Below, one piece after another: positions 16,743-32,698 of a DNA stretch of 64,000 nt; position 1 is the stretch's first letter, and every line of letters begins with the position of its first letter. The position numbers were made by a program, and so were the translations under genes. The notes under the pieces are model-generated. The model worked only from the letters and a program-made list of their open reading frames with translations. It searched no databases and was not told the origin of the DNA. This DNA comes from Pocillopora damicornis (Eukaryota), in contig NW_020843511.1 of assembly GCF_003704095.1 (NCBI RefSeq), positions 62,001 through 126,000 of the forward strand, in the 5' to 3' direction.

Positions 16743-17726
16743 ATGGCGAGACAAAATTTCTCTAATGAAACAGACGATGACTATGAAGAGGATTTTGCAG
16801 GAGTTTTTGATGCACGTTATCACATTCCTCCAATTGCTGTCGCCATTGTCATCATTGGATTAAATGGATTGGTTTTGTACCTGGTAAAGACACGACCCAA
16901 CCTCCAATCAAGCATGAACTTTTTGCTATGTAGCCTGGCCCTGTCAGATCTATTGACAGGGTCACTGAGCATACCACTTCACGTTGGCTGTGATGTCACC
17001 TGGAAAACCAAGATTTGTGTGGCTTCGCAGCTGTTTATGAGATTTACATCAGTTTCCACGGTGATGCACCTTCTTGCCATTACAATGGACCGCTACCTAG
17101 GCATCAAACACGCACTTCGTTACAACGCTCTGGTCACAAAGTACAGAGTAATTGTAACTTCAGTCTTAATATGGAGTTCTTCAATATTTTCATCGCTGAT
17201 ACAGCTTGCTTGGATTAACTACGGACGCGATGACGTCGATGAAGAAGACGAAGACCTTACTAAGCATGAGATCCGTTACGACGTCACTAATCTTGTACTT
17301 TATGTTGCGATTCCATTCGTGGTCATGACCATCGTGTATATCAACATCTTTATTGAAATATTGCGTCAATACCGCAATATCAAACAATATAATTCTCCCG
17401 GATGGACTGAGACAAAGAAAAGGACTCACCACGAATGGAAGGCAGTAGCTATTTTCTCCATCATGCTGTTAGTCTTCATCATTTGTTGGCTGCCATTTTT
17501 TACCACTCGCTTGCAACACAACTTGGGAAAGAAGTTATTTGAACTTCCACTCTCGTCAGAGTACATTTTCGTATATCTGAGGTTTTTCACGTCTTTTTTC
17601 AATCCTTGTATGTATATCTTTGGTAAAAGAGACTTTCGCCAGGCTCTAAGTCTCTCAAGGAGGGGTTTGTTTACGCGGTTTCACTCCTCTTCGTATCATT
17701 CATCTCTGAAGACAACTATGGTGTAG
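16743..17726 (+). CDS. Class A (rhodopsin-like) orphan GPCR, paralog 1; single coding exon, 327 aa
   Basis: 7 hydrophobic segments. Motifs: N1.50 (GLN), LALSD (TM2), C3.25, DRY, W4.50, P5.50, CWLP, NPCMY and helix 8 FRQAL. N-glycosylation sequons NFS/NET lie in the N-terminus. A splice acceptor (ttaacag) ends at 16727, just 5' of the ATG. Confidence 0.95.
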   Translation: MARQNFSNETDDDYEEDFAGVFDARYHIPPIAVAIVIIGLNGLVLYLVKTRPNLQSSMNFLLCSLALSDLLTGSLSIPLHVGCDVTWKTKICVASQLFMRFTSVSTVMHLLAITMDRYLGIKHALRYNALVTKYRVIVTSVLIWSSSIFSSLIQLAWINYGRDDVDEEDEDLTKHEIRYDVTNLVLYVAIPFVVMTIVYINIFIEILRQYRNIKQYNSPGWTETKKRTHHEWKAVAIFSIMLLVFIICWLPFFTTRLQHNLGKKLFELPLSSEYIFVYLRFFTSFFNPCMYIFGKRDFRQALSLSRRGLFTRFHSSSYHSSLKTTMV

Positions 17727-19301
17727 ATGGGCTCATAAAACATCCCGTACTGATATCATTGTGATGCGAAATCATTCTATTTCCGATGGTAAAAAGTTGC
17801 AAAAACTAAATACGGGAAAGACTGATTTGGAAAGCTTACTGTGTTCACTTTGAAACCTTGGCACAATTTCCCACATTTTTCAAGTTCCGTCCTCCTGAGA
17901 AATGGGTGAGCACAGGTTCATTTCCCGAACAGCAGCTGGTAATCGAGCCTATTTATGACCAAAAGCAATCAACCAGTTTCTAACATTCTCTGAATTTATT
18001 CCCTTTTTGTCAAATAGAAACGGCTCGTTGGACCAGAGATGGAATCATTGGAAAGTAAAGGAGATATAAATATCAGAAAATTGTGCATTCTATTGGTGGG
18101 TTTCCTCTTTCTAACAAACATTTTCGATAACCAACGTTACCGCTGACTGATTTACTTTTCACAGAAATGATTAAAAATTAATTTCTCTCACAATTCCAAT
18201 GTATTAGCCAGTGAAAAAAAAATTAGCCAGTAGGTTAGGAAACCAGAGAGATGTTTTTTCGTCAGAGGTTTCGGAGCGATCACGCACAACGTTCAACGTT
18301 CAAATGGGAACCTCCCACCAACCTATCCATTCAGAATTAGTGATACAAACAAACAAACAAACAAACAGATAAAGTATAAGTGAGGCTAAGGAGTCTCCAA
18401 CACACGTTATAGCATTGTTGTTGTTTACCTTGAGTTTTTGTTTCATTGTTTCCAAGTTCAGTATCTCCACTCCTCTATATAGAGAACATGTTTGCCCCCC
18501 ATATGCACCATATCTGAGCTACGTAGTTATAACGTAACATAAGCCCAGTTAGCACTGTGCTGAGATAGTAATCAAGGTTGTGATAAATTATTTATGTATT
18601 TTTATTACCACCGTGTGATTCCAGTTGTTAAGTACTCTTATGGAGTAGTTCTTGGCTGGTACGATGTGTGCTTTGTCTGAAACGAGACTGAGAGTGTAGT
18701 GTTTAGAGTGCTTGCCAGAAAATTCTTAAAGGTAAGAAAAAAAAAACAAAAAAAAAAAAAACGCAAAACCCAAAACCGTCGCTTCGTATCAGCCACGAAC
18801 TGATTTTCACAGCCATCATTCTTATTAATATTTTTATTATTATGTCAATAATGTGTGTTCTGTAGATATTGCATATTTGAAATTTAATAATACCTAGCTT
18901 CATACATCGTATATTATAAGAATGTTATATTTATAAGGGATAACCTGCAGTTATTAGCCTGATATGGGCGTTTTGATAACTCTTTTCAAGAAGGATTTCG
19001 TGTCAAAAGGGTACTCATTCATTGATATCACTAATAATATAGTCGATGACTGTGCATGTTGCATGCACTTTACAAAATATAATAACTCCCCCTTCCATCT
19101 TTAAGAGTTGGAAGCATGTCACTTTCTTCTTTCAGTGTCATTACCGCTCGTGACAATGAAGGAGACGATCATTAACAAAGGAAGTTCTTCATTTTTAAAC
19201 AACTTTCCCTCAATACTATATTTATGAGAGTATAGGTACCAAAGGAAATTACGTTACAAATGTTTGCACGTCTTGTTTGTAGCGGCTCTGCAAGCATTCA
19301 A

Positions 19302-19513
19302 TTAACCCTTGAATCATAAGAGTTTCTTGCATCTAATCTCTCGATATCACATCACTGCTGACTCAAACATTAAGGTTATGAGAATATAAGAAATGACCAC
19401 TCATTCAAGACGCTCTTGATTGATAAACAAGCTCTCCTTTTAAATATCATAAGAAATGTACAAAGAAGATTATGAAGAATGTACAAACTGATGTCAGGGT
19501 TCAAAAAGGTTAA
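19302..19513. mobile_element. piggyBac-like MITE, TTAA-flanked
   Basis: TTAA-CCCTT ... AAAGG-TTAA termini, 212 bp, same family as 6198-6407. Confidence 0.65.
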
Positions 19514-29976: not shown

Positions 29977-31561
29977 TGAATGCCTTTTTAAGCCTGAATC
30001 TGAAACGTGATTCTCACCACTAGTTGCCATATATGAATGTGTAAATATGTTTAAAAAAATTGATATGAGTCACACAACGGTTTCACCCTCTAACTGATGT
30101 TTTTGTCTTTCCTCGTCAATTCAATGAACTAGATTGTGTATCTTTGTAATATAAGTAGACGATAGATCAAAACTGCTGCATGAAAAGGGAGGAAAATAAA
30201 CGGTCCATGCATGAATCAAAGAATGATTTACTGATAGGTCCTGTTTCAGAATTATTGCATCTCACTCAAACACATGGGTGGCGAATGGCCCGCTGAAAAA
30301 TCGTGGTTCTCGCAAACTTTTTCTCCTATCACGAAATCTTGTCCGCGATAACCTTCGAAGTCCCGTTCATAAAGCAGATTTTTATGTGGGAGTCTAGCAT
30401 TCCTCAGTTCAAATATTTCGAGTCTGTGATTTGTTTTATTAATAGCCAGAGATCTCATTAAAAGATAGCTAGAATAGCTTAGAGTTTTTTCTTTGTAAGC
30501 CACGGAAGCCTGTGTGATCGCTTTCAAGTTTAAAAATATTGCAACGTGGAAGAAGATACCTCTACAGCACGACTTGTACAGCATAACATAGAATAACATA
30601 GAATACTCTTCACGGCCAGTGGCTGTATTGTTAATGATTCAATAACTGATATATATCAAGAAGTTTCGGGCTTTTACTTGGCCTTTCTCTAGACTCCATA
30701 CTTCAGGTTGGAGAACTTATGATCAAAAGAATGTAAAAACCATTTCGATTTTTTTGTCAAGTAACTGTAGAGTTGAATCAAATTCTAACAAATAAAGAAC
30801 ATAAGTAATGCAATGCAGATAATTGCCTCAACGTTTCTCCCGCTGAAACATTTTACATTTTCTATTATAGAAACTGTGGATTTTTACTTGGATTTCAAGC
30901 GCTGAGAAAATCGGTAAAAGCACTCGTGTAAAATTGCAATACCTGTGTTTGATACCGCCAATCTGCCGCTGACACGTCACTCGCTTTTCGCATCACTTTG
31001 TCAGGATGATAAAAGAATGACAAAGCGTATACCGTTAATAAAGTCGATTTTTCTTATCAGCAAAGGCCTATGCTATTTATATAATAAACTACATGGTTGC
31101 TTGCAGATATGAAATTTCTTTTCTCGTGTTCAACGCAAGGTATCGAATTAAATAAACGCTCGGAGAGAAATTCTACATATACGTGCGCCCATGAATTATT
31201 CTTTATGTATTCGGCTAAGGTATGGGTTTCATTTTCCAGTGGGGGTCTTACGTTCGCATACAATTCAAGTAAACTAGCATACAACTTGATTGTTAATTGT
31301 ACTCAAAAAGTTTAATTCTTGTAGATATTAGTCTTGTTGATAAAAACGGCCTCGCAACTGGTGAGATATTAATTCCGTCCGCTATAGCTCACAGATTTGA
31401 AGTTTTAGAACAAGGTAAAATTTCTGATTCCATCTTAAACTTAAAGTATAACTGAAGCGGAATTAACACATAGCAGCCGACGCCTTAGTTGTATCTACGT
31501 CTGTTGCCTCCTCTGGGACAGATTTACAGATTCCACGCTTTGAATGTCCTTGCATTGAGTT

Positions 31562-32698
31562 TTATACTGGAGCCCCCACACGTTTGAGCGGAATCATGTC
31601 TTTATAATGGTAACGTTTATCTTTCCTCCCTGACCACTTCAGAGCCGATCGGAAATCCTTCTTTCCAAAGATGTATAAACATGGGTTTAGAAAGGACGAC
31701 AGGAATCGCAGCCACAGGATGACGTACATGATAATAACTCTTATATGATCCAGACGATACAGTCGAAGGACGAAGTACGGCAACCAGCAAACGGCATAGA
31801 CCAATAACATTACTGCAAAAGTTGTCACAACTTTCCTCTCGACGTATTTCAGCTTTCGAGAATCCTGGCTATCAGGCGCAGTTTGCTTTCGGAGGAATTC
31901 GATCTGTCGCGAGACTTCATTGAAGATTCTTGCATAGACGAAGACCATACAGACTAACGGAACAACAGTGAAAGCAAGGACGCATGTGACGTCATAAATA
32001 TTCTCCTTCTTAATTACGTCAGGGGTGAGTTCCTGATGTGGGTCGTGATCTACTGGGTTCATCCAACTTAGCTGGACCAAAGCCATGGTAGCTGATAACA
32101 ACCAGATACTCAGAATGACAGAAATGCATCTTGAGTGAGTAAAAATCGCCTTGTACCTCAAAGGATGAATAATGGCGAGATACCTAACAGTTATAGAATC
32201 AGACTTAATAGTTAAGATGGCTCTTCACAGTTAAAGTCACTGCTATTTTAAGAATTAACCTCATTGCTATTTTATAAAACAAAACAAAACGAAACGAAAA
32301 CAACGAAAGAAATAGTAGCCGCAAGTTCATGTTTACCTGTCTACGCTAACAGCCACGAGGTGGCAAACGGTTGAAATCGACGTAAATCGCAGCATTTGAT
32401 CCTCAGCAATACATATTCCAGGCTTATGTAATAAGTTGCACATCAGAAACAATGGTATACTGATCAACCCGGTTAGGAGGTCTGATAAAGCCAGGCTGCA
32501 CAACAACAAGTTTGTTAAACTTCTTAATCTTTGTTTCCTTGCTACTAAAACTATGACGAAGCCGTTGGCCAAGAGGATTAATATTCCCAGAGTTATTGGA
32601 GGTATGTCAACTGGGAGCCCCAAGCTGTAATCAGAGGTTGATGAGTTATCAGCTGAGGTACTGTGCGATGATTTGGTGGTAAGGTTCATGCTTGGCAT
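31562..32698 (-). CDS. Class A orphan GPCR, paralog 3; exons 32698-32337 and 32183-31562 (327 aa)
   Basis: A 153-bp GT-AG phase-2 intron splits the Arg codon of DRY at the same position as in paralog 2, and splicing gives DRYLAIIHPLRY. Motifs LALSD, CWLP, NPCLY and FRSAL are present, with sequons NLT/NSS. There is an upstream acceptor at about 32726 and an in-frame TAG before the ATG. Confidence 0.94.

What the first reader, a model, noticed from the sequence alone, without database searches (positions are those of the whole stretch)
16743..32698. Three orphan GPCR paralogs share an Arg-triad pocket: candidate anion/zwitterion metabolite sensors, not amine receptors
Seen in sequence, counting from C3.25/R3.50, P5.50, P6.50 and P7.50: all three lack the aminergic D3.32 (M/S/L instead). 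All three conserve R3.33, R6.55 and R7.42, plus E5.35, Y5.38, D5.39 and Q4.60 in place of the usual TM4 proline. Established: D3.32 is the hallmark of biogenic-amine receptors, whereas TM3/TM6/TM7 arginines bind carboxylates or phosphates in SUCNR1, OXGR1, HCAR and P2Y receptors. Inference: similarity searches will probably label these adenosine/octopamine/histamine-like, but they may be an uncharacterised family sensing a carboxylate, amino acid or nucleotide-like metabolite.
Basis: partly seen in the sequence, partly recalled or inferred. Interest (0 to 1): 0.72.

Follow-up and report, generated by a model that had tools for sequence, protein, structure and literature searches.

The report
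Anthozoan orphan receptors with rewired pocket
Three intact, transcribed coral cell-surface receptor genes belong to an old coral-and-anemone subfamily that lacks the standard amine-binding residue and keeps three arginines balanced by acidic residues, so they likely sense a small acid-bearing molecule such as an amino acid, but the ligand is untested.

Summary
Observation confirmed: three intact class A GPCR genes (327, 369, 327 aa; RNA-supported) carry every residue listed. They are three of five tandem copies on this contig. They belong to a tree-defined subfamily of 82 sequences reaching Nematostella and Actinia, with R3.33 in 74, R/K6.55 in 82, R7.42 in 82 and D5.39 in 80.

The 'triad' is three nested layers. 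R7.42 marks a large cnidarian clade (150 of 161), R3.33/Q4.60 a family of 27 paralogues here, and only R6.55 is subfamily-specific.

The pocket is charge-balanced (net 0 or -1 in 71 of 82) and ECL2 is acidic, unlike OXGR1/P2Y. That argues against polyanions or nucleotides. Basic 3.33 plus R6.55 has carboxyl-binding precedent in OXGR1 and a looser one in endothelin receptors. Best reading: a receptor for a mono-carboxylate or zwitterion (0.4). Side-chain geometry could not be measured, and tree-corrected covariation was not significant. Verdict: a new variant of orphan class A GPCR.

The parts
16743..17726 (+). W1, intronless class A GPCR CDS, 327 aa
   Evidence: 7tm_1 E 3.7e-39; RNA contigs in 4 studies; AF2 pLDDT 85.7
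16989..17018 (+). W1 C83 (2.64) to C92 (3.25), CX8C; likely TM2-TM3 disulfide in place of the C3.25-ECL2 bond
   Evidence: (27/27 paralogues have both, 0/27 have an ECL2 Cys)
17040..17042 (+). W1 R100 (3.33)
   Evidence: codon position computed from the CDS start
17202..17204 (+). W1 Q154 (4.60)
17268..17282 (+). W1 E176 (5.35), Y179 (5.38), D180 (5.39): acidic/polar top of TM5
17508..17510 (+). W1 R256 (6.55), subfamily-specific
17580..17582 (+). W1 R280 (7.42), marker of the wider cnidarian clade
26170..26254 (+).
   Evidence: (GT..AG joint in 3 runs)
28430..28748 (+). W2 exon 2 (TM1-TM3, ends inside the DRY Arg codon)
29271..29976 (+). W2 exon 3 (TM4-TM7, C-terminus); W2 totals 369 aa
32337..32698 (-). 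W3 exon 1 (TM1-TM3)
31562..32183 (-). W3 exon 2 (TM4-TM7); W3 totals 327 aa
   Evidence: intron spliced in X1 and X12

Best explanation
These are three intact, transcribed orphan class A GPCRs of a coral-and-anemone subfamily that likely bind a small carboxylate-bearing, probably zwitterionic molecule (amino-acid-like) rather than a classical amine or a polyanion. Shown: gene structure, expression, conserved residues, clade membership. Inferred from homologous positions in solved receptors: R3.33 (held by Q4.60, S3.36, Y5.38) and R6.55 face the TM3-TM5-TM6 side of the pocket and clamp one carboxylate. D5.39/E5.35 pair with R6.55 in the empty state and/or take the ligand's amino group. R7.42 sits at the pocket floor beside W6.48 and is likely a clade-wide activation or structural residue that came with loss of N7.45, not the specificity determinant. 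A C2.64-C3.25 disulfide likely replaces the C3.25-ECL2 bond, leaving an untethered acidic ECL2. G-protein choice is not resolved.
For: Tree built without pocket columns: 82-row clade with R3.33 74, R/K6.55 82, R7.42 82, D5.39 80, Q4.60 81, S3.36 82; all three Arg together in 1 of 167 rows outside, a row with a gapped TM6-7 alignment. Thinned to 24 rows under 65% identity: 20, 23, 24 and 22 of 24 for R3.33, R6.55, R7.42, D5.39. Members include Nematostella and Actinia. Precedent: in OXGR1, H114(3.33) and R261(6.55) clamp one carboxyl of oxoglutarate (PMC12714840 passages). In ETA, K166(3.33) bonds the C-terminal W21 and R326(6.55) salt-bridges peptide D18, within a K3.33/E4.60/K5.38 network (PMC9992518 passages). 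Positions 6.55 and 7.42 contact the ligand in adenosine receptors (PMC7356333 passages), the closest solved folds (Z 29, rmsd about 3 A). Pocket net charge is 0 or -1 in 71 of 82, which fits a zwitterion. Of 18 family members lacking R/K3.33, 15 carry R/K at 4.60 or 6.55 (not tree-corrected).
Against: No coordinates were returned, so side-chain orientation and salt bridges were not measured. ECL2 is net negative in 75 of 82 (median -4.5), which would repel an anion. Tree-corrected covariation was not significant for any pair (1-5 independent pairs, p at least 0.125); R4.60 arose in as few as 2 changes. R3.33 is lost in 8 of 82 subfamily rows. Placozoan receptors outside the amine clade respond to monoamines. 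No ligand data exist here.
Confidence: 0.4

Rival explanations
1. Receptors for a peptide with a free C-terminus or acidic residues, working like endothelin receptors.
For: Positional match to ETA K3.33/E4.60/K5.38/R6.55/D7.35; E7.35 in 56 of 82 subfamily rows; acidic N-terminus and ECL2 could attract a basic peptide.
Against: The model has no strand in ECL2 and there is no TM3-ECL2 disulfide, whereas many peptide receptors have a tethered ECL2 hairpin (PMC10419011, abstract start only). Best solved relatives are small-molecule receptors. W2 and W3 lack E7.35. Many Nematostella peptides are amidated.
Confidence: 0.15
2. Receptors for amines or other cations bound through D5.39/E5.35, with the arginines neutralised internally.
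For: D5.39 in 80 of 82 and E5.35 in 71 of 82; acidic ECL2; W2 keeps W7.40/Y7.43; placozoan non-amine-clade receptors respond to monoamines; Goulty et al. speculate that a cnidarian-specific clade mediates monoamine responses.
Against: No D3.32 (D or E in 2 of 161 clade rows); three conserved Arg at ligand-facing positions would repel a pure cation; does not group with amine receptors.
Confidence: 0.13
3. Receptors for a lipid acid (eicosanoid, fatty acid or lysophospholipid).
For: Loss of the C3.25-ECL2 disulfide is shared with S1P/LPA/cannabinoid receptors (recalled, no call). An Atlas feature search lists a bile acid receptor cluster among look-alikes (0.96, rank 23; a lead only).
Against: The conserved pocket is polar on TM3-5-6; no lipid receptor is among the best 60 or 50 solved matches.
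Confidence: 0.12
5. No organic ligand: the Arg/Asp/Glu network is an internal lock, and the receptors are constitutively active or tuned by H+ or metal ions.
For: Exact charge balance; N7.45 in only 3 of 161 and mostly T at 3.39 wherever R7.42 is present, so the sodium site is remodelled; His/Asp-rich ECL2 in W2, W3 and L011.
Against: Positions 3.28, 3.29, 3.32, 6.55 and 6.58 differ sharply between family branches, as expected for diversified ligand specificity; H6.58 is not shared by W2 or W3.
Confidence: 0.1

Closest known systems
Adenosine A1/A2A, histamine H2 and beta-adrenergic receptors (closest solved structures)
   Same: Best sequence and fold matches (E about 1e-24; Z 29); DRY, CWxP, NPxxY intact; TM5 cytoplasmic end aligns residue for residue with A2A.
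   Different: About 28% identity. No D3.32; R6.55 for N6.55; R7.42/F-Y7.43 for S-T7.42/H7.43; no ECL2 cysteine; separate clade.
OXGR1/GPR99 and SUCNR1/GPR91
   Same: Basic residues at 3.33 and 6.55, which clamp one carboxyl in OXGR1.
   Different: No R3.29 or R7.39, acidic rather than Arg-rich vestibule, balanced pocket; not among best matches. Any likeness would be convergent.
Endothelin receptors ETA/ETB
   Same: Polar network at 3.33, 4.60, 5.38, 6.55 and 7.35.
   Different: ETRs keep the TM3-ECL2 disulfide and bind 21-mer peptides; here Q4.60/Y5.38, no ECL2 Cys, no ECL2 strand in the model.
Cnidarian-specific GPCR clade near monoamine receptors (Goulty et al. 2023, PMC10244343)
   Same: Cnidarian-restricted expansion of unknown function among alpha-type receptors.
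   Different: I could not check whether their clade includes this family; this genome's D3.32 receptors form a separate group that may be the better match.
Lophotrochozoan lineage-specific class A chemoreceptor expansions (PMC11886862)
   Same: Lineage-specific expansion lacking the TM3-ECL2 disulfide.
   Different: Those show fast-evolving pockets without conserved signatures; this subfamily keeps a near-invariant polar pocket from corals to anemones and has a conserved C2.64/C3.25 pair.

Membership tests
Class A (rhodopsin-like) GPCR | 7TM fold with N1.50, D2.50, DRY, W4.50, P5.50, CWxP, NPxxY | tested here: met
Class A (rhodopsin-like) GPCR | Usual C3.25-ECL2 disulfide | tested here: not met
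   ECL2 Cys in 0 of 27 paralogues and 0 of 82 subfamily rows; C2.64 present instead
Aminergic receptors | D3.32 | tested here: not met
   M/S/L; D or E in 2 of 161 clade rows
Aminergic receptors | W7.40 and Y7.43 (motif recalled) | tested here: inconclusive
   W2 has both, W3 has W7.40 only, W1 has neither
Aminergic receptors | Groups with amine receptors in a tree | tested here: inconclusive
   Own clade 100/99, sister to other coral orphans at 89/89; deep nodes open, only 3-4 bilaterian references, no AU test
Aminergic receptors | Activation by amines | not testable with these tools
   needs an assay
Adenosine receptors | N6.55, S/T7.42, H7.43, aromatic ECL2 stacking residue | tested here: not met
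   R6.55, R7.42, F/Y7.43
OXGR1/SUCNR1/P2Y-type anion receptors | R3.29 and R7.39 | tested here: not met
OXGR1/SUCNR1/P2Y-type anion receptors | Basic residues at 3.33 and 6.55 | tested here: met
   R3.33 74/82 and R/K6.55 82/82; OXGR1 H3.33/R6.55
OXGR1/SUCNR1/P2Y-type anion receptors | Net-positive pocket and vestibule | tested here: not met
   pocket net 0 or -1 in 71/82; ECL2 negative in 75/82
Endothelin-type peptide receptors | Polar set K3.33/E4.60/K5.38/R6.55/D7.35 | tested here: inconclusive
   R/Q/Y/R/E in W1; 7.35 is not acidic in W2 or W3
Endothelin-type peptide receptors | TM3-ECL2 disulfide | tested here: not met
Opsins | Retinal lysine K7.43 (recalled) | tested here: not met
   F/Y7.43; the Arg is one position earlier; background loci such as L054 show K7.43
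Proposed carboxylate/zwitterion receptor | Arg side chains face the pocket and are free to bind | not testable with these tools

The most novel reading that the evidence does not exclude
This C2.64-C3.25/R3.33/R7.42 family (27 paralogues here, present in stony corals, anemones and an octocoral) is the cnidarian chemoreceptor repertoire for prey-derived acids. It would include the tentacle receptors for proline/glycine and N-acetylated sugars such as sialic acid, known from pharmacology and localisation, that tune nematocyst discharge. It would be an independently evolved carboxylate-sensing GPCR family with its own disulfide and a built-in Arg at the sodium/toggle site.
Probability: 0.08. Interest if true: 0.85.

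Novelty: new variant of a known kind. Interest (0 to 1): 0.45.

Why it matters
Nematostella has about 1,061 class A GPCRs, mostly orphan, and the large screen targeted neuropeptide-cluster receptors. Database names for this family (adrenergic, 5-HT, histamine, dopamine, octopamine, adenosine-like) mislead studies of coral neurotransmission. A subfamily with a near-invariant polar pocket from corals to anemones implies a conserved ligand. It gives a short list for small-molecule deorphanisation, with a Nematostella member available for knockouts. Anemone chemoreceptors for amino acids and N-acetylated sugars are described functionally and have chemically fitting ligands; the link is a hypothesis only. 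The likely TM2-TM3 disulfide and R7.42 with loss of N7.45 are of structural interest whatever the ligand.

Tried and rejected
1. Measuring pocket geometry: the AF2 model gives no coordinates in the script box.

2. Tree-corrected covariation (C2.64/C3.25; loss of R3.33 against R4.60/R6.55; R6.55/D5.39; R3.33/Y5.38; R3.33/Q4.60): too few independent pairs, none significant. The Fisher p-values ignore kinship and are not used as proof. C2.64/C3.25 went the same way in about 3.6 of 5 pairs and the opposite way in about 0.

3. An ATP-grasp gene inside the cluster as a ligand clue: its 4 other genome matches lie on contigs without family members, and 14 short metagenome loci with homologues show no family GPCR. 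The contigs are short, so this is inconclusive; dropped.

4. Was a Nematostella member already screened? Short motifs of P0237, P0087 and P0126 were not found in the 31 readable supplements of PMC11087051. No positive control was run, one term was mistyped, long cells are cut, and supp6.fasta and one CLANS file cannot be read, so this is weak.

5. Prior description: ten paper searches listed no paper on this family or residue set. Only open-access text is covered and bioRxiv supplements are closed.

6. The 77-row careful tree did not finish (the quick tree was used); a 35-row careful tree did. No AU test was run.

7. 'C2.64 family is one clade' was rejected: the group lacking both cysteines nests inside it.

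8. Opsin reading of the TM7 basic residue was rejected (position 7.42, not 7.43).

9. Complex prediction was not used: it cannot score a ligand.

10. Earlier-findings look-ups by sequence, words and relatives returned nothing.
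Full report
WHAT IS THERE. The window holds three class A GPCR genes (Pfam 7tm_1). W1 is an intronless CDS at 16743-17726 (327 aa). W3 lies on the minus strand in two exons (32698-32337, 32183-31562; 327 aa). W2 has three exons (26170-26254, 28430-28748, 29271-29976; 369 aa); the first was found from RNA contigs that join 26254 to 28430 through GT..AG in three runs. W3's intron is spliced in two studies and most or all of W1's CDS is covered in four. These are contigs, so they show presence, not level or tissue. 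The genome is a stony coral by inference: the closest named relative is from Stylophora pistillata at 89%. Two more paralogues (L002, L011) lie upstream on the same contig, making a five-gene array over about 65 kb. The five are 41-59% identical to each other and 41-48% to a Nematostella protein, so the array is old.

OBSERVATION. Counting from the x.50 anchors confirms every residue named: M/S/L3.32, R3.33, Q4.60, E5.35, Y5.38, D5.39, R6.55, R7.42. For a control I fetched 110 of the 123 genome matches; the 13 left out were first-exon rows of the array, partial rows or rows with stops. These gave 27 family members and 83 others. Among the 72 others outside the R7.42 group, R3.33 and R7.42 occur 0 times, R6.55 twice and D3.32 ten times.

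THE TRIAD IS THREE LAYERS. (1) R/K7.42 marks a wide clade: 24 of 27 family members plus 11 of 11 further genes here, and 150 of 161 rows once library representatives are added. In that clade N7.45 survives in 3 of 161 and 3.39 is mostly T. It includes a Rhopilema jellyfish protein and has 100/99 support. (2) A family within it has C2.64 and C3.25 (27 of 27 here; 92 of 129 complete rows among the best 150 representatives), with R/K3.33 in 78 and Q4.60 in 69 of those 92. A Xenia octocoral protein belongs. (3) R6.55 defines the subfamily. In a tree built without 20 pocket columns (249 complete rows of 301), the clade holding the five array genes and Nematostella XP_032232281 has 82 rows: R3.33 74, R/K6.55 82, R7.42 82, D5.39 80, Q4.60 81, S3.36 82, E5.35 71, Y5.38 70. 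Only 1 of 167 outside rows has all three Arg. Many rows are close orthologues; thinned to 24 rows under 65% identity the counts are 20, 23, 24 and 22 for R3.33, R6.55, R7.42, D5.39. Named members come from Stylophora, Oculina, Orbicella, Nematostella and Actinia. Most hits are unnamed, so the range is a lower bound. The bilaterian hits that were named (platypus H2R, a fish TAAR, a clam adenosine receptor) lack R7.42.

A MISSED FEATURE. ECL2 has no cysteine in 0 of 27 paralogues and 0 of 82 subfamily rows, although C3.25 is invariant. C2.64 is invariant too. Across 161 clade rows both are present in 119, both absent in 36 and one alone in 6, spaced CX8C in 84 of 119. The AF2 model (pLDDT 85.7, pTM 0.82) has TM2 ending at 86 and TM3 starting at 89, so C83 and C92 flank a tight turn, and ECL2 has no strand. 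A TM2-TM3 disulfide is therefore likely but unmeasured. The tree-corrected test went the same way in about 3.6 of 5 pairs but cannot reach significance. Lack of an ECL2 Cys alone is common in this genome (present in 30 of 72 background receptors) and in lophotrochozoan expansions (PMC11886862 passages).

HOW IT LIKELY WORKS. The closest solved proteins by sequence and fold are adenosine, H2 and beta-adrenergic receptors at about 28% identity. In adenosine receptors 6.55 and 7.42 touch the ligand, and D2.50/S3.39/N7.45 form the sodium site (PMC7356333 passages). In OXGR1 one carboxyl is clamped by H3.33 and R6.55 and the other by R3.29 and R7.39, under an Arg-rich vestibule (PMC12714840 passages). 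In ETA, K3.33 with E4.60/K5.38 holds the C-terminal W21 and R6.55 pairs with peptide D18 and D7.35 (PMC9992518 passages). The coral receptors reproduce the 3.33/4.60/5.38/6.55 half but not the 3.29/7.39 half. Over 16 pocket positions net charge is 0 or -1 in 71 of 82 and positive in 11; ECL2 is net negative in 75 of 82. So one carboxylate site plus acidic partners fits best: a zwitterion or mono-acid (0.4), with R7.42 more likely a clade-wide floor residue beside W6.48. All of this is inference from position. The same balance would fit arginines fully neutralised internally. Loss of R3.33 usually coincides with R/K at 4.60 or 6.55 (15 of 18), but this reflects few events.

AMINES ARE UNLIKELY, NOT EXCLUDED. 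D3.32 is absent and the clade sits apart from amine-type rows, nearest to other coral orphans (89/89), with deep nodes open and few bilaterian references. Placozoan receptors of the melatonin and orphan clades respond to monoamines by apparently different contacts (bioRxiv 10.1101/2025.04.18.649542, passages and section 6 read whole). That melatonin receptors lack D3.32 is recalled, not checked. Goulty et al. report a cnidarian-specific clade of unknown function near amine receptors (PMC10244343 passages); whether it contains this family I could not see.

WHAT IS KNOWN. Thiel et al. counted 1,061 class A GPCRs in Nematostella and screened 161, chosen from neuropeptide-linked and some orphan clusters (PMC11087051 passages and section 6). 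My motif search of its readable supplements found no family member, with the limits given under Tried and rejected; the unreadable FASTA could change this. Ten searches listed no paper on this family. Passages of a Nematostella apical-organ preprint gave no usable link (10.1101/2021.05.10.443235). Anemone tentacles have chemoreceptors for proline, glycine and N-acetylated sugars on supporting cells (PMC3509440, PMC11736139, PMC7250568 passages). A cAMP link appears there only as cited titles, and those passages name no gene. Their ligands are carboxylates or zwitterions, hence the novel case (0.08); nothing here ties the genes to tentacles.

VERDICT. Real, conserved and mis-annotated: a new variant of orphan class A GPCR with a distinctive pocket and a likely alternative disulfide. 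Interest 0.45.

Noticed in passing
G000:C146:47843-48931 (-), locus L118; upstream of the window, inside the five-gene GPCR array: ATP-grasp-domain gene (P0345, PF02655 E 4e-8), one of 5 matches in the genome, with close homologues in other metagenome contigs; could be an amino-acid ligase. No repeated linkage to the receptors was found.
   Followed up: partly
window about 48050-51000 and 60850-63230 (+): Two tandem multi-exon MFS_1 transporter genes, SLC16/monocarboxylate-transporter-like by recall, 15-30 kb beyond W3; linkage may be chance.
   Followed up: no
G000:C241 (L018, L019, L025) and Nematostella P0126: Family branch with R4.60 in place of Q4.60; R3.33 is T/S in most members and K in the basal ones, with acidic 6.55 in most: an apparent relocation of the basic residue.
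   Followed up: partly
G000:C918, C3188, C3577, C3979, C2202 (L028-L038): Eleven R7.42 receptors that have lost both C2.64 and C3.25 (one keeps C3.25) and mostly carry H/N3.32 and W6.51; nested in the clade.
   Followed up: partly
W2 28748/29271, W3 32337/32183, L011: A shared phase-2 intron in the DRY Arg codon marks the W2/W3/L011 branch; W1 and L002 are intronless in the CDS. This branch also has a shorter ECL3 and an HDPH motif in ECL2.
   Followed up: partly
window about 16728: RNA contigs of W1 begin here with 71-133 further letters that do not lie at this place, right at an AG: W1 likely has a spliced 5' untranslated exon, not located.
   Followed up: no
window about 16260-16660, 19270-19350, 24270-24760: High-copy interspersed repeats (very high contig depth, many loose ends), one just upstream of W1.
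   Followed up: no
window 41218-41533 and 59340-59788: Tandem arrays of 60 bp x 5.3 and 164 bp x 2.7.
   Followed up: no
G000:C146:24224-25804 (+): C2H2 zinc-finger ORF flanking the far end of the receptor array.
   Followed up: no
L005, L007, L009, L012, L021, L024, L026: Family members with altered switches: L or H for R3.50 (L005, L007), S/T/F/L for P6.50, L for W6.48 (L024, L026).
   Followed up: no
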